Shown here piece after piece: positions 8,588-36,282 of a stretch of DNA of 64,000 nucleotides (positions within the stretch are counted from its first letter, which is position 1; every line of letters begins with the position of its first letter). The stretch is from assembly GCA_021780535.1 (NCBI GenBank), contig JAJXYN010000009.1:303923-367922 (forward strand), read 5' to 3'. The position numbers were made by a program, and so were the translations under genes. The notes beneath the pieces are model-generated. The model did no database searches and was not told the origin of the DNA. It saw nothing but the letters and a program-made list of their open reading frames with translations. Source of the stretch: a bacterium. GTDB lineage: Bacteria; Patescibacteriota; Patescibacteriia; JAGPKW01.

Positions 8588-8677
8588 GGAGAGGTGGCTG
8601 AGCGGTTGAAAGCACCACACTGCTAACGTGGCAGGGCCTAAAAACCCTCGCAGGTTCAAATCCTGTCCTCTCCGCCA
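8588..8677 (+). tRNA. tRNA-Ser (anticodon GCU)
   Basis: GGAGAGG acceptor stem pairing CCTCTCC, anticodon loop CUGCUAA, long variable arm, T-loop TTCAAAT, 3' GCCA encoded. Confidence 0.85.
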
Positions 8678-9062
8678 TACAGGGCTACCGAGATGCCTAG
8701 TTTTACTATGATGGCATTGATGAAACCCCATTAAATCACCAGAGTTTGGTGATTTTTTGTTTTTTTATTTCTCTAAGATTGGTCAATAAATTTTTGATAA
8801 ATTTCTCAATTTTCGAATATCTTGAAATGCAGACTAGAAATTAACTAAAAACTCCCATTAAAAAATAATTAAACTTGGTTCGAAACCTGTTTGCTCTGTT
8901 GGTAACTAGAGCTTCGCAAGGTTTTTGGTTATGTTAATATACTAATACCAACGCGATATTTGGTCTTATTTGGTAAATTAACAAAAATAAAATAGATACT
9001 TCTCTATAATCGAAAGGTATCTAAATTTATAAAATCTTAATTTTTAATAATAGAGATTAAGA
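8672..9062 (+). repeat. Flank repeat copy A: last 6 nt of tRNA-Ser plus ~385 bp of downstream sequence, repeated at 31021..31412 (and partially at 36283..36410)
   Basis: Direct comparison: ccgccatacagggctaccgagatgcctagttttactatgatggcatt...ttggttcgaaacct...taatagagattaag present in both places with ~90% identity. Confidence 0.8.
8733..8768 (+). terminator. Rho-independent terminator downstream of tRNA-Ser
   Basis: atcacca-gagtt-tggtgat hairpin followed by ttttttgttttttt; same element recurs in the two other flank copies. Confidence 0.6.
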
Positions 9063-9769
9063 ATATATTTAACTAAGAACTGGAGGTAATAAACTCCAGT
9101 TAAAATAAAGATAGAAGCTGTTACATATCTTAATATTTTTTCTACTTTAGATACTATATTTAAAGCTTTACTTAACTTATTAAAACTATAAGCTATTATA
9201 AAAGAAAATAATATTACAGGTAGACCGGTTCCTATCCCAAAGAAAGGAGCTAATAAAAATCCAAAATTAGTTTTAAGTATTAAAGGAATTAATATTCCAA
9301 AAAATAAAGCACCACTATAGGGACAAAAAGCTAAAGAAAATAAAATACCCATAAAAAATGAACCAATATAACCCTTAGTAGATAAATGATTTTTTAGTTG
9401 TTCTATCCTCTTATTTCTTATATTAATGTTTATTTTAATAACACCAAACATTAATAACCCTAATAGTATTAGAACTGGCCCTAAAACTTTATCGCCCCAT
9501 CCTTGAAATAGGCTGGATATTTTGAAAGATGATAAACCAAAATAAATTAGAAGAGCTATTAAAGTATAACTTAAAGATCTTCCTAAAGTATAAAATAAGC
9601 CACTTAAAATAGTTTTCTTTTGAGATTTTAAATCTTTTGAAATATATGCAACTGCAGTTATGTTTGTAGCAAGAGGACAAGGGCTAATTGATACTATAAC
9701 ACCCAAAAGAAAAGCTGTTATCAGTGGAATATTTGATGATTCTATTATTGTATTTATAAAATTTAACAT
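9044..9769 (-). CDS. CcdA/DsbD-family transmembrane thiol-disulfide electron transfer protein
   Basis: VSISPCPLATN first-Cys motif in TM1 as in CcdA (SPCVLP), multiple TM helices. Confidence 0.6.
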   Translation of the reverse strand: MLNFINTIIESSNIPLITAFLLGVIVSISPCPLATNITAVAYISKDLKSQKKTILSGLFYTLGRSLSYTLIALLIYFGLSSFKISSLFQGWGDKVLGPVLILLGLLMFGVIKININIRNKRIEQLKNHLSTKGYIGSFFMGILFSLAFCPYSGALFFGILIPLILKTNFGFLLAPFFGIGTGLPVILFSFIIAYSFNKLSKALNIVSKVEKILRYVTASIFILTGVYYLQFLVKYILNLYY

Positions 9770-12002: not shown

Positions 12003-13304
12003 TTAATTTTTAATTAAATTAATTTTCTTGTTTTTCATTATAAATTTATTCTTAAACATACCCATAAACTGTCTTTTTTCTTCTATAGAACCGTGGTTTA
12101 GTATAAACTTGGCATAATCTACTAAGTCTACCTTTCTATCGTTCATACCTCGTTCTACGTTGTTTATTTTAAGTACTTGTTTTTGTAGATGAGCAAATCT
12201 TTCCACTTCTATTCTTAACTTTTCTTTAATGTCTTCTTCTGGAATATCAATATCTTTTAGAAGTTTTATTATTTGCTCTATAAATTGTTCTTCTCTAATA
12301 TATCTATTACTACACTTAAGATCTTTTGTTCTATTACATCCATAGTAAATATATTTATTTACTCCACCATTTTTTAATTTCTTGTGTTTTTCCACCGCAC
12401 ATAAATTAGAGCTGCAATGACCACAAATCATAGAACCTAGAAAAGCAAACTCTTTTTCTCCATATTTGTAACTAGCTTTTCCTAATTTTATTTTTCTTTG
12501 AACGATTTCAAATAATTCTTTTGTAATTATTGGTTGATGATTTCCTTGGCACCAATTACCACTTCCTGCTGGATATTCAAACCATCCATAGTAAAATGGT
12601 CTACCAAGTAATATGTAGATATTTGCTAAAGACAGATTCTTACCACTTTTTGTTGTGAAATTTTGTTTTACAAACCAACTATGCAAAGCCCTACCAGAAT
12701 AGTTTTCATAAGCTACTTTCTCAAACGCTTGTTTGATTATTGGAGCTCTTTCAGGATCTGGAATTACTACTCCTGTTTTATTTTTTCTTTCATCATTAAG
12801 ATAGCCGATAGGAGCAACTCCTATCCAAAATCCTTTTGATGTTTTAATTTTCAAACCTCTTTTTACATTGATACTTTTATTATCATTCTCAAGTTTAGCC
12901 TGACCACCAAGTACTGCTAATAGAAATTTATCATTTGGTGTATTTTTAAAGTTTTGATTATACGTTCTTATTTCTTTAAGATAACTACCGTCTATTAAAT
13001 CTATAATACTTCCTAAATCTCCAGCATTTCTTGAAAGTCTATCAGTATTCCATGTTAGAATACCTTCGAATTTACCTTGTCTTAATTCTTTTATCATTTC
13101 ATTAAATATCGGCCTCTGACTTGAAGCTTTTGCAGAATGAGCCTCTTTTTTTATGCAAACCACATTAAGATTATCTCTTTCTGCTATTAAACTCATTTCA
13201 TTTTCTTGAGCTTCTATTGAAAGAGCCTGTTTTTCATCTTCTTCACTAGATTTTCTAGCATAAAGACAGTATCTAATTTCTGACGAAAACCCTTTGTTTT
13301 CCAT
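12003..13304 (-). CDS. Large serine recombinase (resolvase N-domain + recombinase domain + zinc ribbon)
   Basis: YARKSS (catalytic Ser region), RLSRN, recombinase-domain body and C-terminal CGHCSS...YYGC zinc ribbon. Confidence 0.85.
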   Translation of the reverse strand: MENKGFSSEIRYCLYARKSSEEDEKQALSIEAQENEMSLIAERDNLNVVCIKKEAHSAKASSQRPIFNEMIKELRQGKFEGILTWNTDRLSRNAGDLGSIIDLIDGSYLKEIRTYNQNFKNTPNDKFLLAVLGGQAKLENDNKSINVKRGLKIKTSKGFWIGVAPIGYLNDERKNKTGVVIPDPERAPIIKQAFEKVAYENYSGRALHSWFVKQNFTTKSGKNLSLANIYILLGRPFYYGWFEYPAGSGNWCQGNHQPIITKELFEIVQRKIKLGKASYKYGEKEFAFLGSMICGHCSSNLCAVEKHKKLKNGGVNKYIYYGCNRTKDLKCSNRYIREEQFIEQIIKLLKDIDIPEEDIKEKLRIEVERFAHLQKQVLKINNVERGMNDRKVDLVDYAKFILNHGSIEEKRQFMGMFKNKFIMKNKKINLIKN

Positions 13305-20146: not shown

Positions 20147-20249
20147 ACCTTACTAATTTACAAGAAGTAGACAAACAGTAGATAAATATGCTTTACTTTT
20201 GCCTTTTTTCAAGTTAATATAATAATACAATTTAATTTGCCTAAACTAA

Positions 20250-20400
20250 TACCAACAGGTGTTGGCATGGCATAAAATCCATAACGAACAAGCTAGGTCT
20301 TCTGACTAGTATTTTTCGTTATGGTCTACATTCGAAAGGATGTAGGGCTAAACCTCGAAAGAGGCATGCCAAAATACTTTGTCGGGAGGCCTTTTTGTTT
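20250..20400 (+). ncRNA. Candidate structured RNA (unclassified): closing helix ggcatg/catgcc enclosing a 10-bp helix with nested hairpin, a ctacat/atgtag hairpin with tcGAAAgg loop and a cctc-GAAA-gagg hairpin
   Basis: Multi-helix arrangement with two GAAA tetraloops, local GC ~42% in a 25% background, no ORF, ~40 nt upstream of a small gene. Confidence 0.35.
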
Positions 20401-20691: not shown

Positions 20692-21783
20692 ATGGAAAAG
20701 AAAATATTACAAACAAATCAATGCCCGTTTTGCTTTAATAAAATAGATATTAGAGCAATTAAATGTGATAAATGTCGCTCTGATTTAACTACAAATGAAG
20801 CACAAAATAAGATTAGAAAAATATTAGATGAACAAACAGACAAAAAGAATAAAGAGACTGATAAAAATAATCAACAAAAAAGTCATACAATAAAAATATT
20901 TTTTTATGTAGCATCTTTCTTGTTATTTTTAGCACTAGTTTCGTTACACGCTTTAGGGTATTCTATATTTTTTGCATTAGCTATAGCTTTTGTTGTTTAT
21001 CAAGACAAAGTATTTAATATTATTGATAAGAATTATAAGATTGAAGAAAAAAATAAATTTCAAAAAACCATTAGAAAAGTTATTATAGGTTTTCTTGCTT
21101 TAATATTTTTAGGATGTTTTATAGCTTTCATGCAACAAGCAACAGAAAGCCCAGAACATAAATTAGCAAGGCAAAAAGTTGAACAAGAACAAATTCAAAA
21201 AACAAATGAAGCTAAGCAAAAGGCTGACGCAGAAGCAAAAAGAATAGCAGATGAAAAAATCAAACAAGAAAAAGCACAAAGAGAGCAAGAGGCTCCAGCT
21301 AAAATAACTAGCTTTATACAACAAGTTAAAGATATAAAAACTGATAAGAAATATGAAGATGTAAAAAGTATAGAACTTGAAGCAATATCAATTAATGCTT
21401 TTGGACAAATAATAAAAGAATATAGAGCCGATTTCCCAGATAATAAAGAAATACAAAATCTTACAAATCAATTGGAAACGTCTGTTAAAAATAAACAATT
21501 ATCTTTATTCCCAAATTTAAGAAAAAATTATGGAACTATTTCTAAAAATCTTCTTTGGGAAAATGATGTAGAAGCTAGTGTTTTTGGGACTGGAAATAGC
21601 ACAATAGAATTTGTTGGTGGAGTATTTGCATCAAATAAAAACATAAAAGAATTCTATTCTAAAATAGCAGATATGTTAAAAGAATTAAGATTTGATAGAG
21701 CTAATTTCAAATGGTATTCATATGATAATGGGTCTTATTATGAAATAGAAAGCTTAAAGGATGGAGAATTCTTGATTAAATAG
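20692..21783 (+). CDS. Membrane protein with N-terminal zinc ribbon and coiled-coil region
   Basis: CPFC...CDKC, 3 TM helices, KQEKAQREQE coiled coil. Confidence 0.4.
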   Translation: MEKKILQTNQCPFCFNKIDIRAIKCDKCRSDLTTNEAQNKIRKILDEQTDKKNKETDKNNQQKSHTIKIFFYVASFLLFLALVSLHALGYSIFFALAIAFVVYQDKVFNIIDKNYKIEEKNKFQKTIRKVIIGFLALIFLGCFIAFMQQATESPEHKLARQKVEQEQIQKTNEAKQKADAEAKRIADEKIKQEKAQREQEAPAKITSFIQQVKDIKTDKKYEDVKSIELEAISINAFGQIIKEYRADFPDNKEIQNLTNQLETSVKNKQLSLFPNLRKNYGTISKNLLWENDVEASVFGTGNSTIEFVGGVFASNKNIKEFYSKIADMLKELRFDRANFKWYSYDNGSYYEIESLKDGEFLIK

Positions 21784-26822: not shown

Positions 26823-27134
26823 TTAGTACTTATTTTGAATATTATATTTTGGCTTGAACTTGAAAATTTCACTCTTTTCTAAATCCTCAGCTTCTTTTAT
26901 TGTTGAGCAGGTGCAATAATTAAAATGTGTAATTCCATACCACTCATTAGCTTGAATATGTTGTAAAAGCCTTCCTCTTACACCTTGCTCGCTTGTAGCT
27001 TTTCCTACATAGTCTACATTTATTGTACCCTGTTGATTTGCTTGTCCTAGGTAATAAATTCCTATAACATTTGAATTCCAATTAGAGATAGTATTCTTAT
27101 CATAACTAAATGGTCCTTTGTAAAATTGAATCAT
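26823..27134 (-). CDS. Small stand-alone GIY-YIG nuclease-domain protein
   Basis: GIYYLG...(10 aa)...DYVGKA, then R (VRGRLLQH) and downstream E/N residues. Confidence 0.55.
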   Translation of the reverse strand: MIQFYKGPFSYDKNTISNWNSNVIGIYYLGQANQQGTINVDYVGKATSEQGVRGRLLQHIQANEWYGITHFNYCTCSTIKEAEDLEKSEIFKFKPKYNIQNKY

Positions 27135-27338
27135 ATTTCTAAAATTACTTAATTAATTTATAAATTCTGACCTTTGAAGGAGAGATTTTTAACGCTTATA
27201 GGTAGTATACAATAAAAAAATATTTTTGTAAACAAGTGAAAGTGTTTTTTAAAAATATTAACTTATTTAAATTAAAACTTTACATATGTAAACTTTTAGT
27301 ATAAAATACTAGTAGATAACAAAGAAATCACACAAAAT

Positions 27339-27986
27339 ATGACAAAAAATGAGGAATTTTTACTTAAGAAAATAAAGGATAACAAATTAGACGGATTATC
27401 TCTTAGAGAAATATCTGATTTAATACCAAATAGTGCTGGAAATGCAGGAACAGCACAATATTATTTAGAAAAACTTCAAAAAAATGGTTATATAATTTGG
27501 AATAGAACAAGAAAGAAAATTGTTTTACTTGGTGAAGTTGTTAAACAAAACATAAAATCAAATGTTCTTAGGCTCCCTTTTTATGGATATGCTAATTGTG
27601 GAGAAGCTTTATCTTTTGCAGATAATACCATTGAAAGATTTATAGAAGTATCATCTCCAATTTTAAAAAACAAAACTCAAGATGATCTTTTTATAGTTCA
27701 AGCAGATGGAGATTCTATGAATTTGCAGGAAATTAATGGTAAAAAAATAGAAAGTGGTGACTTTATTATTATTGATAAAAGTGAAATCAATGATTTGAAA
27801 AATGGTGATTGTGTTCTATCAATAATAAATGGAATGGCTAATATAAAAATATATAATAAAAGTGTTAAAGATGATTATATAAAATTGGAACCAAATTCCT
27901 CAAACAAGAATCATTTTCCGATATTTATTCATGAAGATGGAAATTTCACTATAGCAGGAAAGATTTTAGAAATAATAAAAAAATAA
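27339..27986 (+). CDS. LexA/CI-like repressor (HTH + S24 peptidase domain)
   Basis: N-terminal winged HTH (LSLREISDLIP...YYLEKLQKNGYI); GDSM serine motif and downstream Lys in C-terminal S24 domain. Confidence 0.75.
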   Translation: MTKNEEFLLKKIKDNKLDGLSLREISDLIPNSAGNAGTAQYYLEKLQKNGYIIWNRTRKKIVLLGEVVKQNIKSNVLRLPFYGYANCGEALSFADNTIERFIEVSSPILKNKTQDDLFIVQADGDSMNLQEINGKKIESGDFIIIDKSEINDLKNGDCVLSIINGMANIKIYNKSVKDDYIKLEPNSSNKNHFPIFIHEDGNFTIAGKILEIIKK

Positions 27987-28035
27987 AGGGTTAAAACCCT
28001 TTATTTTTGTTAGAGTTCATTATTAATTCATTAAA

Positions 28036-29217
28036 ATGTCTAAAAATCTAAAAGAAAAACAATATTATGAAGACCTATATGATTCTGAAACAATAGAAGA
28101 TTGTAAGAGAATGTTTTGTAATTCTACTGATAGAAAGTTTTTAGACAAAGAAATTAATAAATATAAAGACAAGAAATCGGCATCAGAAATGTTAAATAAA
28201 TGGGCTGATACAGTTGATAAAATAGGTCTATATTTCTTTAAAGGAGATAGATATAGAAAAAGAGAAGAAACAATAAGAGAATGGATGGCAAAAGATAGAA
28301 ATAGAGACCAAAAACTGGAAAATACAAATTTGGAAAATATTAAATGTAAATATTGTAATACCCTAATGGATTTAATAGATAAAGATTATTTTCCAAAGAA
28401 TATTGAACCATTAGAAGAATCTATATTATTTATCTACAGTTGTCCTAAGTGTAAAAAATCTAGAGCAATATTTGAAAATAATGAGGAATATATTCCAAAA
28501 AAAGTATTATGTCCTAAATGTAATAATGAACTAGATGTAAAAGGAAATGCAACCGAAGACAAGCTTATAACAACTTATAAATGCAATAATTGTGATTATA
28601 TAAATATTGATGAGATAGAAAGATTTAAACCAGAAAATAAAGAAATAGATTATGAACAATTTCTAAAAAATAAAAAAGAATATTGTTTAGATGATAAAGA
28701 AGGAATGGAATATGTTTCTCAATCTATAAGACTAGAAAGTCTCACAAAAGAATTCGAGAAAGATAAAGAAAAAGAAAAACAGAAAGCAACATACGATAAA
28801 ATAAAAGAACTTAATAAACCCAAAATATTTGACTTACAAGAACTTTTATCAAAAGGATTAGAAAAATATAAGTTTGTTAAATTAAATTTTAAAGAACCAC
28901 AAATTGAGAAGTTTATCACTATAGAATTTACAATTTATGACTCAGAAAGCTCTAGAAGTGAATATGATGCTAAAAATATATTACAAAAGCAAATAGAAGC
29001 AATATTAAAAGAAACTAATTGGATTTTGATGAGTGATGGAATTAGCTATAGATTAGGAATGTTGTCTGGAAGATTAAAAGCTTATGAAAGAGAAGAAGAT
29101 TTAGTTGAATTAGTTAATAAAAGATTTAAAGATCTAAAACCTAAAGAAGAAAAAATAGACTCAAACAGAAAAGACTGGGTTGTGAAAGGTGCAAACGGAG
29201 AGGATATAACTTTATGA
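28036..29217 (+). CDS. Multi-zinc-ribbon protein, unknown function
   Basis: CKYCN..CPKCK and CPKCN..CNNCD; its 3' ~95 bp is duplicated at 36112..36207. Confidence 0.4.
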   Translation: MSKNLKEKQYYEDLYDSETIEDCKRMFCNSTDRKFLDKEINKYKDKKSASEMLNKWADTVDKIGLYFFKGDRYRKREETIREWMAKDRNRDQKLENTNLENIKCKYCNTLMDLIDKDYFPKNIEPLEESILFIYSCPKCKKSRAIFENNEEYIPKKVLCPKCNNELDVKGNATEDKLITTYKCNNCDYINIDEIERFKPENKEIDYEQFLKNKKEYCLDDKEGMEYVSQSIRLESLTKEFEKDKEKEKQKATYDKIKELNKPKIFDLQELLSKGLEKYKFVKLNFKEPQIEKFITIEFTIYDSESSRSEYDAKNILQKQIEAILKETNWILMSDGISYRLGMLSGRLKAYEREEDLVELVNKRFKDLKPKEEKIDSNRKDWVVKGANGEDITL

Positions 29218-29498
29218 TAGAAGAAGATTATATAACAACGGTTGGAAAAATAATCCCGCCTAAAGGCAAAAATAGAATGCCAATAAGATATTTAGTTTCA
29301 TACCCCAAGGAATTTAATGAAAGATTATATGAGGAATCAATGGAGGCTATTTATAAAATAATTTTTTATTATGATAAAACAAAAACTACCACCAATGAAA
29401 GTTGTGATTCCGCCCCAAGGAAAAAGAAGATTCTCAATAATAATGGAGGCATGCTTTCCAGAAAATCCAGGCCAAAGAGAACAAGAGGAATTATTTAA
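29214..29498 (+). CDS. Small protein carrying repeat unit 1 (IIPPKGKNRMPIRYL...); possibly the 5' part of a frameshifted gene
   Basis: Paralogous ~45-aa unit recurs in the overlapping +1-frame ORF 29371..29595. Confidence 0.35.
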   Translation: MIEEDYITTVGKIIPPKGKNRMPIRYLVSYPKEFNERLYEESMEAIYKIIFYYDKTKTTTNESCDSAPRKKKILNNNGGMLSRKSRPKRTRGII

Positions 29499-29595
29499 AG
29501 CAGTTGATAAAATAATAATCTCTGAAATTATGAAGGATATGAATAAAAATGACCCATATTATAAAGAATATGAAAAAATACTTAACATATTATAA
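29371..29595 (+). CDS. Small protein carrying repeat unit 2 (VIPPQGKRRFSIIME...)
   Basis: See previous; alternative start ATG at 29395. Confidence 0.35.
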   Translation: MIKQKLPPMKVVIPPQGKRRFSIIMEACFPENPGQREQEELFKAVDKIIISEIMKDMNKNDPYYKEYEKILNIL

Positions 29596-29637
29596 GTTAA
29601 GTTGTAGGATAAAAATAAGATTTTTAAAAAAACCAAA

Positions 29638-30102
29638 ATGAATGACGAAAATAAAAGAAAACACTTAGAAATGATACAAAATATAGTTACTAGAATGGGA
29701 AATAATTTATTTTTCCTAAAAGGTTGGTCTATTACAATAATAGCAGCTATATATGCTATTCTTGCAAAAGATATAAGTTTAAAATACATGATTTTCGCAG
29801 CAATTCTTCTTATAATACTATGGATTCTTGACGGTTATTTCTTACATCAAGAAAGATGTTTTAGAGATTTATATGATGCTGTAAGAATTAAAAAAGAAGA
29901 AGATATAGACTATTCTATGAATATAAAAGAATATATAAAAGGAAAAAATACTTGGTTAAAATCAATGTTTTCAAAAACATTAAATATATTTTATGGATCA
30001 ATGTTATTTTTAATAATTATTATGATTGTGTTATCAAATATTAAAATAAATATATCTATTACTTGGAACAATCAAAACAATAATCAAATAATACAAAAAT
30101 AG
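29638..30102 (+). CDS. Small 3-TM membrane protein, translationally coupled to downstream TIR-like gene
   Basis: Predicted TM helices WSITIIAAIYAIL, MIFAAILLIILWIL, SMLFLIIIMIVL; stop at 30102, next start at 30104. Confidence 0.45.
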   Translation: MNDENKRKHLEMIQNIVTRMGNNLFFLKGWSITIIAAIYAILAKDISLKYMIFAAILLIILWILDGYFLHQERCFRDLYDAVRIKKEEDIDYSMNIKEYIKGKNTWLKSMFSKTLNIFYGSMLFLIIIMIVLSNIKINISITWNNQNNNQIIQK

Positions 30103-30103
30103 A

Positions 30104-30763
30104 ATGGGCAGAAAAATATTTGTTAGCTATAAATATGCTGATTCATCTGTTCCGGATTTAAATCTTGGTGAACAGACAACTGTTAGGCATTATGTTGATA
30201 TAATACAAGGACTTTTATCAGAAGAAGATCATATAAACAAGGGTGAAAACGATGGAGAAGATTTAAGTTCTTTTAAAGAAAGTACGATAGAATCAAAATT
30301 AAGAGATAAAATATTTGATAGCACTATAACAATAGTTTTAATATCAAAAAACATGAAAGATCCTAGCAAGAATGAATCAGACCAGTGGATACCTTGGGAG
30401 GTTTCATATTCATTAAAAGAGATTACAAGAGGAGATAAAACAAGTGGCACAAATGCCATGTTAGCAGTTGTTTTACCAGATGAAAAAAATGATTATTCCT
30501 ATTTCGTAAATCACTTTGCTTGTACTACAAGTTGGAATACAGATATACTTTTTAAAATTCTTGGAAATAATATGTTTAATAGGAATAATAAAAATTTAAT
30601 CTCATGCCAAACTTGTGGAGGAACGCATCATATAGACGATGATCACTCATATATTCACCCAGTAAAATGGTGCGATTTCATAAAAGATATAAATAAATAT
30701 ATAGATATAGCTTTAAAAATGAATAATAATCTCAATGAATATAAAATTCAAAAGGAATTATAA
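30104..30763 (+). CDS. TIR-like domain protein (ThsB/DUF1863-like) with Cys/His-rich C-terminus
   Basis: KIFVSYKYADS N-terminal strand motif and SDQWIPWEVSYSL (W-x-x-E) motif as in ThsB (RVFFSFHYQD ... RRWVRYEIMKS); recalled alignment, not computed. Confidence 0.6.
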   Translation: MGRKIFVSYKYADSSVPDLNLGEQTTVRHYVDIIQGLLSEEDHINKGENDGEDLSSFKESTIESKLRDKIFDSTITIVLISKNMKDPSKNESDQWIPWEVSYSLKEITRGDKTSGTNAMLAVVLPDEKNDYSYFVNHFACTTSWNTDILFKILGNNMFNRNNKNLISCQTCGGTHHIDDDHSYIHPVKWCDFIKDINKYIDIALKMNNNLNEYKIQKEL

Positions 30764-30906
30764 TTTTGTTTTTGTTATCTATATACATTAATGACGCAAT
30801 AAAAATCACATATCTAGCAGTTGATAACTTATAATATTTTAGGCTAATATTAGCTATATTATGCTGATATTTATCTATAAAGTCAAGTTAAAAACCTTCT
30901 ATTTTT

Positions 30907-31020
30907 TATGTGTAACATTTGTAACATTTTTTTGCGACCGAGATGCCTCATTTTTCTCCAAAATCCTACCCCCAAAACCCCTTATGGTGCTTGTATGTGT
31001 GGGTACCAGACCGAGGCTTC
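30907..31020 (+). repeat. ~115-bp repeat unit (tgtgtaacatttgtaacattt...gcgACCGAGATGCCtcatttttctcc...cttcccgcc), second copy at 35475..35629
   Basis: ~85% identity between copies; contains a second instance of the accgagatgcc motif also present just downstream of tRNA-Ser. Confidence 0.7.
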
Positions 31021-31412
31021 CCGCCATACAGGGCTACCGAGATGCCTAGTTTTACTATGATGGCATTGAGTTATCCCAGAAAAATCATCAGAAATGGTGA
31101 TTTTTTGTTTTTTTATTTCTCTAAGGTTGGTCAATAAATTTTTTATAAATTTCTCAATTTTCGAATACCTTGAAATGCAGATTATAAATTAATGAAAATC
31201 CCTCATTAATAAACAATTAAATTTGGTTCGAAACCTAGATGCTCTGTTGGTAACTAGAGCTTCGCAAGGTTTTTGGTTATGTTAACATACTAATACCAAC
31301 GCGACATTTCGGTCTTATTTGGTAAATTAACAAAAATAAAAAAAGATACTTCTCTATAATCGAAAGGCGTCTAAATTATAAAATCTTAATTTTTAATAAT
31401 AGAGATTAAGAA
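31021..31412 (+). repeat. Flank repeat copy B (partial tRNA-Ser 3' end ccgcca + downstream flank)
   Basis: See copy A; terminator hairpin variant atcatca-gaaa-tggtgat. Confidence 0.8.
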
Positions 31413-31541
31413 AAATATTTAATAAATTAACTAATAATATATGATTTAAAATCTTCATCATTTCTTCATTTTGATTTGATATGATTTGTAGTTATTGGTT
31501 TATGGAGTTAGAATTATTTAATAAATATATAATTATAATTT

Positions 31542-32882
31542 ATGTCAGATAACATAAAACAAGAAGAAGCTAATCAACAAAATGACAATAAAATATTAAG
31601 TAAAGAAAAGGAAAAAGAACTAGATTTTTTCATTACAACTCCATTAAGATCAGCTAACAATTTAATGAACAAATTATATAGCGATGATAGTTTTTATGAA
31701 ACAACTACTTATGCATTTGTTTCACCAGGAGATGCTAAAAAACTTTTTTTCTATGGAGCGTGTAAGGAGGTATTAAAAACCTGTATATATTTAATGAACA
31801 ATAAAGAATTTCTAGGAGGATCTATAAATGATAAAGATTTTGGTATTGTAGAAAAAGTAATAATGGGGTCAACAATAGATACTCAAACATATCATAGAAG
31901 AAAGATGGTGGAGCTATTAAGTATTGTTATATTATTTGATAGAAACACTAAACATGATGAAGAATACAGAATATATAAATCAGCTGAGAATTTAGATTTA
32001 TTCCTAAGCAGACAATCTGATTTTAAAGAACTTTTTAATGGAAAAATAATATTAAATACTCAACATTCAATAGATGATTTTATAGGAAGGATTGATAGTG
32101 ATAAAAAAGCCATCGAACTTACAGATGTTTGGTTTTTAAATGAAAAAAAACTAAAAAATCAAACTCCAGGTATATTTAAGAGCAAAAAAGGAATATATGA
32201 TTCAGCAATGCTTGTTGCTACTCCTGATGAAAAAATAGCTCTTGGTATATCCTATGGCCGTGGCTATTCTCGTGCTAGTCAATCAATTCATCCAATGTTA
32301 GGAAGTAGTAATTATGGTAAAGAAGATAATGATATCGAACATGTACTTATGAATTCAATTTATATGTCAATTATATGTATGCAAATAATGCATATAGCCT
32401 ATAAGTTAACTGGTTTTGAGGATGAATTTGGATTATCAAAAATCATGGGAACTAATTTTGAAAAATCAGAAGCATCTAAATCAATTGGAGTTTTACAGAA
32501 AGATTTTGATAAAGGAGATCTTATACTTACTTCATGGACAGATATTGCAGAAATAATTGATGAAGAAACAAGTAAATACGGATATAAGGCTTATAAAATA
32601 AAATATCTTTTAACACCACCGCTACCAGAATATCCAGAAGATTGGATAGAAGCACAAAACATATTAGCGCGTATATTATCAAAAAAAACTGTAAGAAAAA
32701 TGTTTAACAATATGGTTATAGAAAAAATGTCTAAAGATGTTATTGAATTATGGCCCGATGTATTAAAACAACCAGATGAAGAACTTATGAAATCAGCAAA
32801 ACATGTGTTTATTGATTTACATAAAGCCAATGTCTTGATACCAATGTTACTAAAAAGTGGTTTCTTAAAGAAAACTAGTTAA
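31542..32882 (+). CDS. Hypothetical 446-aa protein (sole cargo of module B)
   Basis: Intact ORF, host-like composition, no recognisable motif. Confidence 0.45.
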   Translation: MSDNIKQEEANQQNDNKILSKEKEKELDFFITTPLRSANNLMNKLYSDDSFYETTTYAFVSPGDAKKLFFYGACKEVLKTCIYLMNNKEFLGGSINDKDFGIVEKVIMGSTIDTQTYHRRKMVELLSIVILFDRNTKHDEEYRIYKSAENLDLFLSRQSDFKELFNGKIILNTQHSIDDFIGRIDSDKKAIELTDVWFLNEKKLKNQTPGIFKSKKGIYDSAMLVATPDEKIALGISYGRGYSRASQSIHPMLGSSNYGKEDNDIEHVLMNSIYMSIICMQIMHIAYKLTGFEDEFGLSKIMGTNFEKSEASKSIGVLQKDFDKGDLILTSWTDIAEIIDEETSKYGYKAYKIKYLLTPPLPEYPEDWIEAQNILARILSKKTVRKMFNNMVIEKMSKDVIELWPDVLKQPDEELMKSAKHVFIDLHKANVLIPMLLKSGFLKKTS

Positions 32883-32896
32883 TATTAGTAAGAATA

Positions 32897-34198
32897 TTAA
32901 TTTTTTATTAAACTAATCTTCTTATTTTTCATTACAAACTTATTCTTAAACATACCCATAAACTGTCTTTTTTCTTCTATAGAACCGTGATTTAATATAA
33001 ACTTGGCATAATCTACCAAGTCTACTTTTCTATCGTTCATACCTCTTTCTACATTGTTTATTTTTAGTACTTGTTTTTGTAGATGAGCAAATCTTTCTAC
33101 TTCTATTCTTAACTTTTCTTTAATGTCTTCTTCGGGAATATCAATATCTTTTAGAAGCTTTACTATTTGCTCTATAAATTGTTCTTCTCTAATATATCTA
33201 TTACTACATTTAAGATCTTTTGTTCTATTACATCCATAGTAAATATATTTATTTACTCCACCATTTTTTAATTTCTTATGTTTTTCTACTGCACATAAAT
33301 TAGAACTACAATGGCCACAAATCATAGACCCTAAGAATGCAAATTCTTTTTCTCCATATCTATAACTAGCTTTTCCTAATTTTATTTTTCTTTGAACTAT
33401 TTCAAAGAGTTCTTTTGTAATTATTGGTTGATGATTTCCTTGGCACCAATTACCACTTCCTGCTGGATATTCAAACCATCCATAATAAAAAGGCCTTCCA
33501 AGTAGTATATAGATATTTGCTAAGGATAAATTCTTACCACTTTTTGTCGTGAAATTTTGCTTTACAAACCAACTATGTAAAGCTCTACCAGAATAGTTTT
33601 CATAAGCCACCTTCTCAAATGCTTGTTTAATTATTGGGGCTCTTTCAGTATCTGGAATTACTACTCCTGTTTTATTTTTTCTTTCATCATTAAGATATCC
33701 AATAGGCGCAACTCCTATCCAAAATCCTTTTGATGTTTTAATTTTAAGACCTCTTTTTACATTGATACTTTTATTATCATTCTCAAGTTTAGCCTGACCG
33801 CCAAGTACAGCTAATAGAAATTTATCATTCGGAGTATTTTTAAAGTTTTGATTATATGTTCTTATTTCTTTCAGGTAACTACTATCTATCAGGTCTATTA
33901 TACTTCCTAAATCCCCGGCATTTCTTGAAAGTCTATCAGTATTCCATGTTAGAATACCTTCAAATTTTCCTTGTCTTAATTCTTTTATCATTTCATTAAA
34001 TACTGGTCTTTGACTTGAAGCTTTTGCAGAATGGGCTTCTTTTTTTATACAAACTACATTTAAACTATCTCTTTCTGCTATTAAACTCATTTCATTCTCT
34101 TGAGCTTCTATCGAAAGAGCTTGTTTTTCGTCTTCTTCACTAGATTTTCTAGCATAAAGACAATATCTAATTTCTGATGAAAACCCTTTGTTTTCCAT
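32897..34198 (-). CDS. Large serine recombinase (second copy)
   Basis: 8 aa differences from 12003..13304 over 433 aa. Confidence 0.85.
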   Translation of the reverse strand: MENKGFSSEIRYCLYARKSSEEDEKQALSIEAQENEMSLIAERDSLNVVCIKKEAHSAKASSQRPVFNEMIKELRQGKFEGILTWNTDRLSRNAGDLGSIIDLIDSSYLKEIRTYNQNFKNTPNDKFLLAVLGGQAKLENDNKSINVKRGLKIKTSKGFWIGVAPIGYLNDERKNKTGVVIPDTERAPIIKQAFEKVAYENYSGRALHSWFVKQNFTTKSGKNLSLANIYILLGRPFYYGWFEYPAGSGNWCQGNHQPIITKELFEIVQRKIKLGKASYRYGEKEFAFLGSMICGHCSSNLCAVEKHKKLKNGGVNKYIYYGCNRTKDLKCSNRYIREEQFIEQIVKLLKDIDIPEEDIKEKLRIEVERFAHLQKQVLKINNVERGMNDRKVDLVDYAKFILNHGSIEEKRQFMGMFKNKFVMKNKKISLIKN

Positions 34199-35307: not shown

Positions 35308-35703
35308 ACGTACCTCCTTGTCCTATTTTGGACTCTATTACTATAACATAAATAGTACATTTTGTCAATTATTTTTGCCATCTTTACTTATTATTTTTAT
35401 TTAATACTATTCAATAAAATATAAACATTTTTGAATATGTAGTGTCGCATATGTCGCATTAAATTTGTCTTTTTTTGTGTAACATTTGTAACATTTTACA
35501 TCCTATGTACTGTCTAATTTGTCCAATTTTTACCTCTGCGACCGAGATGCATCATTTTTCTCCAAAACCCTACTCTTAAAACCCCTTATGGTACTTGTAT
35601 GTATGAGTACCAAACCGAGACTTCCCGCCTTCGCTCGCTATAGCGAGCTTCAGCGGATAAATCCGCAAGGATATTATTCAAAGAAAATACTCCATTAAAA
35701 AAT

Positions 35704-35992: not shown

Positions 35993-36111
35993 ATTAATCT
36001 ATAAATTCATTATAAATATACTACTTGTGTGATTTAATCTTATTAACATTTTAGTAACTTTAAAAAAATTTAATAGCTATGTAGAATGATTATAAATATT
36101 GATAAATCAAA

Positions 36112-36207
36112 CAATATTAAAAGAAACTAATTGGATTTTAATGAGTGATGGGATTAGTTATAGATTAGGAATGTTGTCTAGGAGATTAAAAGCTTATGAA
36201 AGAGAGG
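36112..36207 (+). pseudogene. Orphan duplicated fragment of the 3' end of gene 28036..29217
   Basis: ~90% nucleotide identity to 29000..29095, no upstream reading frame. Confidence 0.6.
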
Positions 36208-36282
36208 AATAGGATGCCTAATTTAGACAATAAATGAGCGATAGCGAATATTATTGTCTTATCCTCGTAGTGGGTTTACTAT

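What the first reader, a model, noticed from the sequence alone, without database searches (positions are those of the whole stretch)
29638..30763. Two-gene module inside the prophage remnant: 3-TM 154-aa protein translationally coupled to a ThsB-like TIR-domain protein, a candidate minimal Thoeris-like/SLATT-TIR defence system
ORF 30104..30763 has a TIR-like N-terminus (KIFVSYKYADS... SDQWIPWEVSYSL). This resembles Thoeris ThsB and the DUF1863 family (conserved F-S-Y strand and W-x-x-E motif). It also has a Cys/His-rich C-terminus.
- It starts 1 nt after the stop of a small protein with three predicted TM helices and a short cytoplasmic N-terminus.
- Known TIR systems pair ThsB with SIR2/SLOG or with 2TM+Macro effectors. 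Here the partner is a bare TM protein with no sensor domain, the architecture described for SLATT-type pore effectors.
- The pair sits at the extreme end of a cryptic prophage, directly before the att-like repeats. This is a typical position for phage-carried defence cargo.
Basis: partly seen in the sequence, partly recalled or inferred. Interest (0 to 1): 0.8.

Follow-up and report, generated by a model that had tools for sequence, protein, structure and literature searches.

The report
Type V Thoeris anti-phage gene pair
The two genes are a real anti-phage defence pair, a TIR sensor enzyme plus a small three-helix membrane effector, but this pairing was described in 2025 as "type V Thoeris", so this is a new example of a known system.

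Summary
Both ORFs exist as described: a 154-aa protein with three hydrophobic helices (29638-30102) and, 1 nt later, a 219-aa TIR protein (30104-30763).

- **TIR protein.** It is a full-length ThsB. PADLOC ThsB1 gives E 4e-80, Pfam PF08937 scores above its threshold, and PDB 9vyl "BdThsB1 with NAD" gives E 6e-68 and TM-score 0.87. The catalytic Glu (E99) is invariant.
- **Membrane partner.** It is not SLATT. It belongs to a large family (5,733 cluster representatives) that PADLOC lists as candidate PDC-M50A. [quoted passage not shown]
- **Evidence for ThsF.** A TIR listed in that paper's Table S1 as "DUF2270 - Type V" is encoded verbatim next to a 46%-identical homologue of the window protein. 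Genes next to close relatives of a validated type V ThsB are 49% identical to it.
- **Pairing.** The family sat beside a TIR gene in every other genome and plasmid locus read, and in 23 of 25 distinct viral-contig loci, in either gene order.
- **Context.** The pair lies at the right end of a roughly 22-kb phage-like element at tRNA-Ser, probably in a Patescibacteria genome.

It is a new member of a known kind, of low interest.

The parts
29638..30102 (+). thsF: 154-aa effector with three TM helices (ThsF / PADLOC PDC-M50A family). The family core is residues 1-134. Residues 135-154 are a tail shared only with the closest homologues.
   Evidence: ORF. PADLOC PDC-M50A E 3.9e-48 over the full profile. 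Three hydrophobic segments at 24-42, 46-64 and 117-135. AF2 pLDDT 91.7 with helices 3-44, 48-84 and 113-153. 49% identity (E 3e-45) to the gene next to a 71%-identical relative of the validated Bacillus sp. 1NLA3E type V ThsB. 46% to the neighbour of the Table S1 'DUF2270 - Type V' TIR.
30104..30763 (+). thsB: 219-aa TIR-domain protein, the predicted sensor and signal synthase. It starts 1 nt after the thsF stop.
   Evidence: PADLOC ThsB1 PDLC00428 E 4.1e-80, positions 1-218 of 219. Pfam PF08937 23.6 bits (gathering score 21.2). PDB 9vyl_A E 5.8e-68 over the full length. Foldseek on the AF2 model: 9vyl 'BdThsB1 with NAD', TM 0.87, 51% identity.
30398..30400 (+). Codon GAG for Glu99 of ThsB, the predicted catalytic glutamate of the TIR domain (motif W95-I-P-W98-E99).
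   Evidence: Invariant in 27 close homologues. At least 90% conserved across 23 diverse ThsF-adjacent TIRs. Aligns with the Glu of the WVRYE motif of B. cereus MSX-D12 ThsB. That Glu is residue 83 of the Table S1 fragment and would be E85 if the fragment starts at residue 3, which is my inference. The E85Q mutant is described in Ofir 2021.
30521..30673 (+). C-terminal Cys/His-rich part of ThsB (residues 140-190; C168-x2-C171, H175, H176, H181, H185, C190). Possibly a metal site in the non-TIR part.
   Evidence: C168 invariant, H176 and H181 at least 90% conserved. The CxxC is absent from BdThsB1 in the alignment. No function was tested.
31021..31425 (.). Copy of the tRNA-Ser 3' end and downstream flank (att-like junction), 258 nt after thsB. 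It marks the right end of the element that carries the pair.
   Evidence: 81-87% identical to 8672-9076. The motif ACCGAGATGCCT occurs four times against 0.05 expected. Alignment.
8588..8677 (+). tRNA-Ser(GCT), the probable integration site and left boundary of the roughly 22-kb element.
   Evidence: ARAGORN and Rfam. Its 3' flank is duplicated at 31021.
27339..27986 (+). S24 (LexA/CI-like) repressor gene upstream on the same strand. This is context, and any role in regulating the pair is untested.
   Evidence: Pfam Peptidase_S24 2.4e-16. PHROG transcriptional repressor. S24/LexA genes also lie next to ThsF-ThsB in loci L004-L007 and L013.

Best explanation
The pair is a type V Thoeris anti-phage system carried as cargo at the end of a phage-like integrated element. 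The proposed steps are:
1. ThsB (30104-30763) detects phage infection. (Inferred.)
2. Its TIR domain, using catalytic Glu99, converts NAD+ into a cyclic ADP-ribose isomer, most likely 3'cADPR (1''-3' gcADPR). (Inferred.)
3. The signal binds the cytoplasmic face of a ring-shaped homo-oligomer of ThsF (29638-30102). That face is formed by the conserved basic N-terminal helix and the helix that follows TM2. (Inferred.)
4. ThsF then breaches or depolarises the membrane, which stops growth of the infected cell and phage replication. (Inferred.)

Shown here are family membership of both proteins, conservation of the catalytic residue, the three-TM architecture, and strong conservation of the gene pairing. 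The signal identity, ThsF oligomerisation, membrane damage and defence activity are inferred from experiments on homologues in Yirmiya et al. 2025 and Ofir et al. 2021.
For: **ThsB**
- Full-length PADLOC ThsB1 hit, E 4e-80, and Pfam PF08937 above its threshold.
- The solved homologue 9vyl 'BdThsB1 with NAD' matches at E 5.8e-68 and TM-score 0.87.
- E99 is invariant and aligns with the catalytic Glu motif of BcThsB.

**ThsF**
- PADLOC PDC-M50A, E 3.9e-48.
- The family is large: 5,733 representatives at E <= 1e-3 and 822 at E <= 1e-30.
- TIR IMG 2501732538, labelled 'DUF2270 - Type V' in Table S1, is encoded verbatim in L024. It lies directly after a 133-aa homologue that is 46% identical to the window protein.
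- In Exiguobacterium and Thalassobacillus, 71%-identical relatives of the validated Bacillus sp. 1NLA3E type V ThsB are followed after 2 nt by 135-aa proteins. The Exiguobacterium one is 49% identical to the window protein (E 3e-45).
- On plasmids, homologues of the validated B. thuringiensis type V ThsB sit next to ThsF homologues that hit the same PADLOC model.

**Pairing**
- A TIR gene was adjacent in every other genome and plasmid locus read and in 23 of 25 distinct viral-contig loci.
- The adjacent TIRs come from several unrelated subfamilies and occur in either gene order.

**Signal**
- The tested type V TIRs make 3'cADPR.
- Both B. dafuensis TIRs make the ThsA-activating cADPR isomer. 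I take 9vyl 'BdThsB1' to be B. dafuensis TIR1; that equivalence is my inference.
- A 54%-identical TIR on a B. cereus plasmid lies next to a SIR2 ThsA-type gene.

**Topology**
- The K/R-rich N-terminus and the loop after TM2 carry the conserved polar residues H9, Q14, R19, K28, D65, E72, R76 and Y79.
- This fits the positively charged inter-protomer pockets reported for ThsF.
Against: - The window protein and its family do not reach Pfam's threshold for PF10028 (DUF2270), the label the paper uses. Only 13 of 54 members give weak hits, with a best E-value of 0.0018; the two scores printed are 13.9 and 15.6 bits against a cutoff of 25. DUF3278 is hit more often.
- I could not obtain the sequences of the two experimentally validated ThsF proteins. 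The link runs through neighbours of their ThsB relatives and through Table S1.
[quoted passage not shown] The activating ligand may therefore differ between ThsF clades.
- No multimer model could be made.
- The TIR AF2 model is only of moderate confidence (pLDDT 74).
- No expression or function data exist for this locus, which comes from an uncultured organism.
Confidence: 0.85

Rival explanations
1. One reading: a SLATT-TIR system, now called type VII Thoeris. The TM protein would be a SLATT-type pore former activated by canonical cADPR.
For: A small TM protein lies next to a ThsB-like TIR. SLATT effectors do pair with TIRs, in type VII.
Against: The window protein matches no SLATT Pfam model at E <= 1, and none is among the 25 families most matched by 54 family members at E <= 10. 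It has three TM segments rather than two. It hits PADLOC PDC-M50A at 3.9e-48. Its homologues are the neighbours of type V ThsBs, not type VII ones.
Confidence: 0.03
2. A non-signalling module. The TIR protein would itself be the NAD+-depleting toxin or effector. The TM protein would be its sensor, anchor or antitoxin, or an unrelated prophage membrane protein such as a holin-like or superinfection-exclusion protein.
For: Some bacterial TIRs act as NADase effectors. No signal was measured for this locus.
Against: The same TM family pairs with several unrelated TIR subfamilies in either gene order. It also occurs fused to SLOG and HIT domains, which is the pattern expected of a signal-responsive effector. 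Homologues in the same TIR family lie beside a SIR2 ThsA-type gene or are ThsB of a type I system. The tested type V ThsBs make 3'cADPR only on infection, and the added molecule triggers effector-dependent toxicity.
Confidence: 0.05
3. A decayed, non-functional remnant. The genes would be intact in reading frame but inactive cargo of a degraded prophage.
For: The element has terminase, methylase, repressor and integrase genes, but no recognisable capsid, portal or tail genes. No significant promoter or terminator was found.
Against: Both ORFs are full length against their family profiles. All invariant and nearly invariant residues of both families are present in the window proteins. Identical copies occur on three other assembled contigs.
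Confidence: 0.05

Closest known systems
Type V Thoeris (ThsB + ThsF 'DUF2270'), Yirmiya et al. 2025, bioRxiv 10.64898/2025.12.03.692087
   Same: It is a two-gene operon of a TIR ThsB and a roughly 135-aa three-TM effector. The window effector is 46-49% identical to effectors next to Table S1 type V TIRs and next to relatives of a validated ThsB. The window ThsB falls in TIR cluster 2742576382, several members of which are listed as type V.
   Different: The host is probably Patescibacteria, whereas the validated systems are from Bacillus. The window ThsB belongs to a different TIR subfamily from the two validated ones. ThsF here has a 20-residue C-terminal tail. The family does not pass the current PF10028 threshold.
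PADLOC-DB v2.0.0 candidate system PDC-M50 (A + B)
   Same: The window TM protein hits all four PDC-M50A models, the best at 3.9e-48. PDC-M50B is a TIR model, and it hits the TIR next to ThsF in Daviesbacteria at 5.5e-56.
   Different: The window TIR hits ThsB1 model PDLC00428, not PDC-M50B. PDC-M50 was only a bioinformatic candidate, and I found no paper that names it.
Type I Thoeris ThsB, in particular PDB 9vyl 'BdThsB1' (taken to be Bacillus dafuensis TIR1)
   Same: The window ThsB is a full-length homologue: E 5.8e-68, 51% identity in the structural alignment and TM-score 0.87. A 54%-identical TIR lies next to a SIR2 gene on a B. cereus plasmid.
   Different: The partner effector here is ThsF, not SIR2-SLOG ThsA. 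The window subclade has a CxxC...HH...H motif that BdThsB1 lacks.
Type VII Thoeris (TIR + SLATT ThsH) and CBASS SLATT effectors
   Same: The logic is the same: a small membrane effector is activated by a nucleotide-derived signal.
   Different: There is no SLATT homology, three TM helices rather than two, and a different predicted signal (canonical cADPR for type VII).

Membership tests
Thoeris (any type) | A TIR-domain ThsB protein | tested here: met
   Pfam PF08937 23.6 bits, above 21.2. PADLOC ThsB1 4.1e-80. PDB 9vyl BdThsB1 5.8e-68 and TM-score 0.87.
Thoeris (any type) | Conserved catalytic glutamate in the TIR domain | tested here: met
   E99 is invariant in 27 homologues. It aligns with the Glu of the BcThsB WVRYE motif.
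Thoeris (any type) | An effector gene adjacent to thsB in one operon, with the pairing conserved across genomes | tested here: met
   The gap is 1 nt. The pairing was conserved in every other genome and plasmid locus read and in 23 of 25 distinct viral-contig loci.
Thoeris (any type) | Infection-dependent production of an ADPR-derived signal, and phage defence | not testable with these tools
   This needs cloning, phage challenge and LC-MS.
Type V Thoeris | Effector homologous to ThsF | tested here: met
   49% identity (E 3e-45) to the neighbour of a 71%-identical relative of the validated 1NLA3E ThsB. 46% to the neighbour of Table S1 'DUF2270 - Type V' TIR 2501732538. These neighbours, and those of B. 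thuringiensis ThsB homologues on plasmids, hit the same PADLOC model PDLC04686 at 1e-47 to 1e-50. The validated ThsF sequences themselves were not available.
Type V Thoeris | Three membrane-spanning helices in the effector | tested here: met
   Hydrophobic segments at 24-42, 46-64 and 117-135. AF2 gives three long helices with pLDDT 91.7.
Type V Thoeris | Effector annotated as Pfam PF10028 (DUF2270) | tested here: not met
   The window protein has no PF10028 hit at E <= 1. Among relatives, 13 of 54 give weak hits, with a best E-value of 0.0018; the two scores printed are 13.9 and 15.6 bits against a cutoff of 25. The neighbours of type V ThsB relatives also fail. The label therefore does not come from the current Pfam model at its threshold. 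This does not separate the window protein from ThsF.
Type V Thoeris | Ring-shaped homo-oligomer with positively charged inter-protomer pockets; activation by 3'cADPR | not testable with these tools
   Only monomer prediction was available. The conserved basic and polar residues on the predicted cytoplasmic face are consistent with this.
Type VII Thoeris / SLATT effectors | SLATT domain with two TM helices | tested here: not met
   The window protein matches no SLATT Pfam family at E <= 1, and none is among the 25 families most matched by 54 homologues at E <= 10. There are three TM helices.
Type I / type II Thoeris | SIR2-SLOG ThsA, or a Macro-domain TM effector, next to thsB | tested here: not met
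   No SIR2, SLOG or Macro hit in the ten flanking ORFs scanned between 21817 and 34198 or in the partner protein.
PADLOC PDC-M50 | PDC-M50A plus PDC-M50B genes adjacent | tested here: inconclusive
   The A component is met at 3.9e-48. The window TIR hits ThsB1 models and not PDC-M50B. PDC-M50B is itself a ThsB-like TIR model.

The most novel reading that the evidence does not exclude
Two linked ideas remain open. First, the window's ThsB subclade, common in Patescibacteria, may carry a conserved C-terminal CxxC...HH...H metal-binding module that serves as a distinct phage-sensing domain. Second, the ThsF clade paired with it may respond to a ligand other than 3'cADPR, as is suspected for the 1NLA3E type V system. 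Expression might also be tied to the adjacent S24/LexA-like repressor, so that the element's cargo defence is switched on with the SOS response or with induction.
Probability: 0.2. Interest if true: 0.4.

Novelty: new member of a known kind. Interest (0 to 1): 0.2.

Why it matters
It adds one more instance of type V Thoeris. This one is on a phage-like integrative element in what is probably a Patescibacteria (candidate phyla radiation) genome, a group with small genomes. That is modestly useful for surveys of how defence systems spread on mobile elements.

It also shows that the 'DUF2270' label for ThsF does not come from the current Pfam model at its threshold. Annotation pipelines that rely on Pfam alone will miss this family, whereas PADLOC's PDC-M50A models find it.

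It does not open a new mechanism or a new question.

Tried and rejected
- **afdb50 fold search.** The library was not available for the ThsF model.
- **Literature search for 'PDC-M50'.** No papers were found. A search for 'ThsF', 'type V Thoeris' or 'DUF2270' found only the Yirmiya preprint as relevant.
- **Genome-contig scan with the 1NLA3E ThsB TIR domain.** It did not return the 1NLA3E genome itself, only 71%-identical relatives. The validated ThsF sequence was therefore never compared directly.
- **Plasmid hit closest to the B. thuringiensis type V ThsB.** On the B. cereus plasmid it has no adjacent ThsF. It lies in a multi-TIR type I locus instead.
- **Profile comparison with bona fide PF10028 members.** Not possible, because no such sequences were in hand.
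- **Promoter and terminator scan of 27000-33000.** It found fewer promoter-like sites than shuffled sequence and no + strand terminator after thsB.
- **GC-rich segment 30933-31025 as a structured RNA.** There is no Rfam hit at E <= 1 and the folding z-score is -0.6. I rejected this as unsupported.
- **SLATT, Macro and SIR2-SLOG partners.** Considered and rejected.

Full report
**Observation.** ORF 29638..30102 (+) encodes 154 aa. ORF 30104..30763 (+) encodes 219 aa. One base separates the TAG stop of the first from the ATG of the second.

The first protein has three hydrophobic segments, at residues 24-42, 46-64 and 117-135. Its N-terminus is basic, as is the long loop after the second segment. 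An AlphaFold2 model built on 54 homologues is confident, with mean pLDDT 91.7, and shows three long helices at 3-44, 48-84 and 113-153. The second protein carries the quoted motifs.

**The TIR protein.**
- Pfam PF08937 (ThsB_TIR) scores 23.6 bits, just above its gathering score of 21.2, and covers only residues 40-124.
- PADLOC's ThsB1 model PDLC00428 matches end to end at E 4.1e-80.
- A sequence search of the PDB finds one close full-length homologue, 9vyl_A 'Putative cyclic ADP-D-ribose synthase TIR1', at E 5.8e-68.
- The AlphaFold2 model (pLDDT 74) superposes on 9vyl, 'Crystal structure of BdThsB1 with NAD', with TM-score 0.87. The next hit is a ThsB-Tad3 complex.
- More than 4,600 homologues exist, most about 222 aa long.
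- Among 27 of them, W95, P97, W98 and E99 are invariant.
- E99 aligns with the Glu of the WVRYE motif of B. cereus MSX-D12 ThsB. That is the residue mutated as E85Q in Ofir et al. 2021. The numbering offset is my inference.
- The Cys/His-rich C-terminus is real and partly conserved: C168 is invariant, and H176 and H181 are at least 90% conserved. The solved homologue lacks the CxxC.

**The membrane partner.**
- Pfam gives nothing significant and no SLATT hit.
- PADLOC gives PDC-M50A at E 3.9e-48 over the whole profile.
- Ninety-four close homologues were found. Most are 130-135 aa with a strongly conserved pattern, KRKHLEFIQ..R...N.F.LKGW ... FW.LDGYFL.QE..FR.LYD.VR ... IDFSM ... FSKTL.
- A profile search of 1.84 billion cluster representatives finds 5,733 members at E <= 1e-3 and 822 at E <= 1e-30.
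- Some members are fusions: SLOG (LD_cluster2) + this module, 8xMP + this module, and HIT + this module.
- When 54 members were scanned one by one against Pfam, 21 gave weak DUF3278 hits and 13 gave weak PF10028 (DUF2270) hits, with a best E-value of 0.0018; none was shown to reach a gathering score. No SLATT model is among the 25 families matched by most members.

**What the literature says.** Yirmiya et al. (bioRxiv 10.64898/2025.12.03.692087, December 2025) surveyed TIR-containing defence operons and validated Thoeris types V to XI.
- Type V is ThsB plus a three-TM protein 'annotated as PF10028, DUF2270', which they renamed ThsF. The ThsBs of the two defending type V systems made 3'cADPR on infection.
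- Added 3'cADPR was toxic to cells with the B. thuringiensis system but not to cells with the Bacillus sp. 1NLA3E system.
- AlphaFold3 models ThsF as a homo-heptameric channel-like ring with positively charged pockets between protomers.
- TIR + SLATT is their type VII and signals through canonical cADPR.

**Linking the window to type V.**
1. Table S1 of that paper lists TIR IMG 2501732538, in cluster 2742576382, as 'DUF2270 - Type V'. It is an obvious full-length homologue of the window ThsB. Other members of that cluster carry the same label.
2. That exact sequence is encoded in IMG/VR contig UViG_2876205751_000001 (L024:3374-4114). It lies directly after a 133-aa gene (L024:2998-3399) that is 46% identical to the window TM protein.
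3. A scan with the TIR domain of the validated 1NLA3E ThsB returned 71%-identical relatives in Exiguobacterium and Thalassobacillus. Each is followed after 2 nt by a 135-aa protein of the same family. The Exiguobacterium one is 49% identical to the window protein (E 3e-45).
4. On plasmids, homologues of the validated B. thuringiensis ThsB and homologues of the window TM protein occur in the same records at adjacent positions, in Priestia, Terribacillus and Klebsiella. Their taxon distributions are nearly the same.
5. All these neighbours hit the same PADLOC model as the window protein.

PADLOC's PDC-M50B is itself a TIR model. The pairing was therefore already a catalogued candidate in 2023.

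**Neighbourhood conservation.** The family is next to a TIR gene in:
- Daviesbacteria (TM then a 193-aa TIR);
- Aeromonas jandaei (two TIRs then TM);
- an unnamed 1.3-Mb contig (TIR then TM);
- two contigs found through ThsB homologues.

Of 26 viral-contig loci holding a complete ThsF-like gene (25 distinct), all but the two copies on one contig have a tightly adjacent same-strand TIR gene. Of 23 distinct neighbour proteins, 18 hit ThsB_TIR, 11 hit TIR_2 and 4 hit TIR. The partners belong to several unrelated TIR subfamilies, and the gene order varies. This is the signature of an effector that reads a shared small-molecule signal.

**Mechanism.** The most likely sequence has four steps.
1. ThsB senses infection.
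2. Its TIR domain converts NAD+ into 3'cADPR.
3. ThsF oligomers bind the signal on their cytoplasmic face.
4. ThsF damages the membrane, and the infection aborts.

The assignment of 3'cADPR rests on three points:
- the measurements on type V ThsBs;
- the relationship to BdThsB1, which I take to be B. dafuensis TIR1, and the finding that both B. dafuensis TIRs make the ThsA-activating isomer;
- a 54%-identical TIR that lies next to a SIR2 gene on a B. cereus plasmid.

The 1NLA3E exception keeps this step uncertain. Nothing about this particular locus has been tested experimentally.

**Context.**
- The window has 26.5% G+C.
- The named nearest relatives of a housekeeping DEAD-box helicase are all Patescibacteria: Magasanikbacteria, Buchananbacteria and Nomurabacteria.
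- Upstream of the pair lie terminase small and large subunits, two DNA methylases and an S24 repressor.
- The tRNA-Ser 3' end and flank (8672-9076) recur at 31021-31425.
- Each copy is followed by cargo genes and then by one of two 98%-identical large serine recombinases, at 12003-13304 and 32897-34198.
- The pair therefore sits at the right end of a roughly 22-kb element integrated at tRNA-Ser, just before the junction with a second, smaller element.

**Verdict.** This is a new member of a known kind.

Noticed in passing
window 8672-9076 and 31021-31425; 12003-13304 and 32897-34198: The 3' end and about 400 nt downstream of tRNA-Ser(GCT) are duplicated at 81-87% identity. Each copy is followed by cargo ORFs and then by one of two 98%-identical 433-aa large serine recombinases. 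This looks like two related integrative elements accreted in tandem at one tRNA locus.
   Followed up: partly
window 30933-31025 and 35537-35629: A GC-rich 93-nt segment (54% G+C in a 26.5% window) occurs twice at 89% identity. It ends in ...CTTCCCGCCA, like a tRNA 3' end, and copy A abuts the tRNA-flank copy. There is no Rfam or tRNA hit, and folding of copy A is not significant (z -0.6).
   Followed up: partly
window 28997-29097 and 36109-36209: The 3' end of the 393-aa ORF upstream of the Thoeris pair is repeated at 93% identity in the intergenic region beyond the second recombinase. This suggests a decayed second copy of the same module without the Thoeris cargo.
   Followed up: no
window 31542-32882 (+): A 446-aa ORF lies between the att-like repeat and the serine recombinase. 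It has no hit in Pfam, NCBIfam, PADLOC or PHROGs and may be unknown cargo.
   Followed up: partly
window 20238-20354 (+): A LOOT RNA (Rfam RF03000, 67.4 bits, above its gathering score) lies inside the phage-like element, just upstream of ORF 20692-21783.
   Followed up: no
P0237, P0268; L022:1933-2829: The ThsF membrane module also occurs fused to other domains. These are SLOG (LD_cluster2), an 8xMP membrane domain, and a HIT hydrolase domain in a Citricoccus protein next to TIR genes. The module therefore appears to be reusable.
   Followed up: partly
L004-L007 (978-2377), L013 (1478-3058), window 27339-27986: S24/LexA-like repressor genes, sometimes fused to a DNA methylase, recur beside ThsF-ThsB pairs and restriction-modification genes on these contigs, some of them from Patescibacteria. 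This may indicate repressor-controlled defence islands.
   Followed up: no
L037:3390-4433: In one viral contig the gene after the ThsF-like gene encodes a protein with a prokaryotic STING domain and a nucleoside 2-deoxyribosyltransferase-like (TIR-like) N-terminus, rather than a plain ThsB.
   Followed up: no
phage records PQ189363.1, PQ189372.1, PQ189378.1 (2222-2452): Three 14.4-kb Vibrio cyclitrophicus 'PE' phage records carry a partial ThsF-like match (38% identity over half the protein). These are the only hits among 50,697 deposited phage genomes.
   Followed up: no
L017 (B. cereus plasmid NZ_CP053657.2, 11613-16072): This is a multi-TIR type I Thoeris locus. A SIR2 gene is followed by a TIR that is 54% identical to the window ThsB. 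A homologue of the B. thuringiensis type V ThsB and a third TIR lie nearby, with no ThsF. The same ThsB lineages therefore serve both type I and type V systems.
   Followed up: partly
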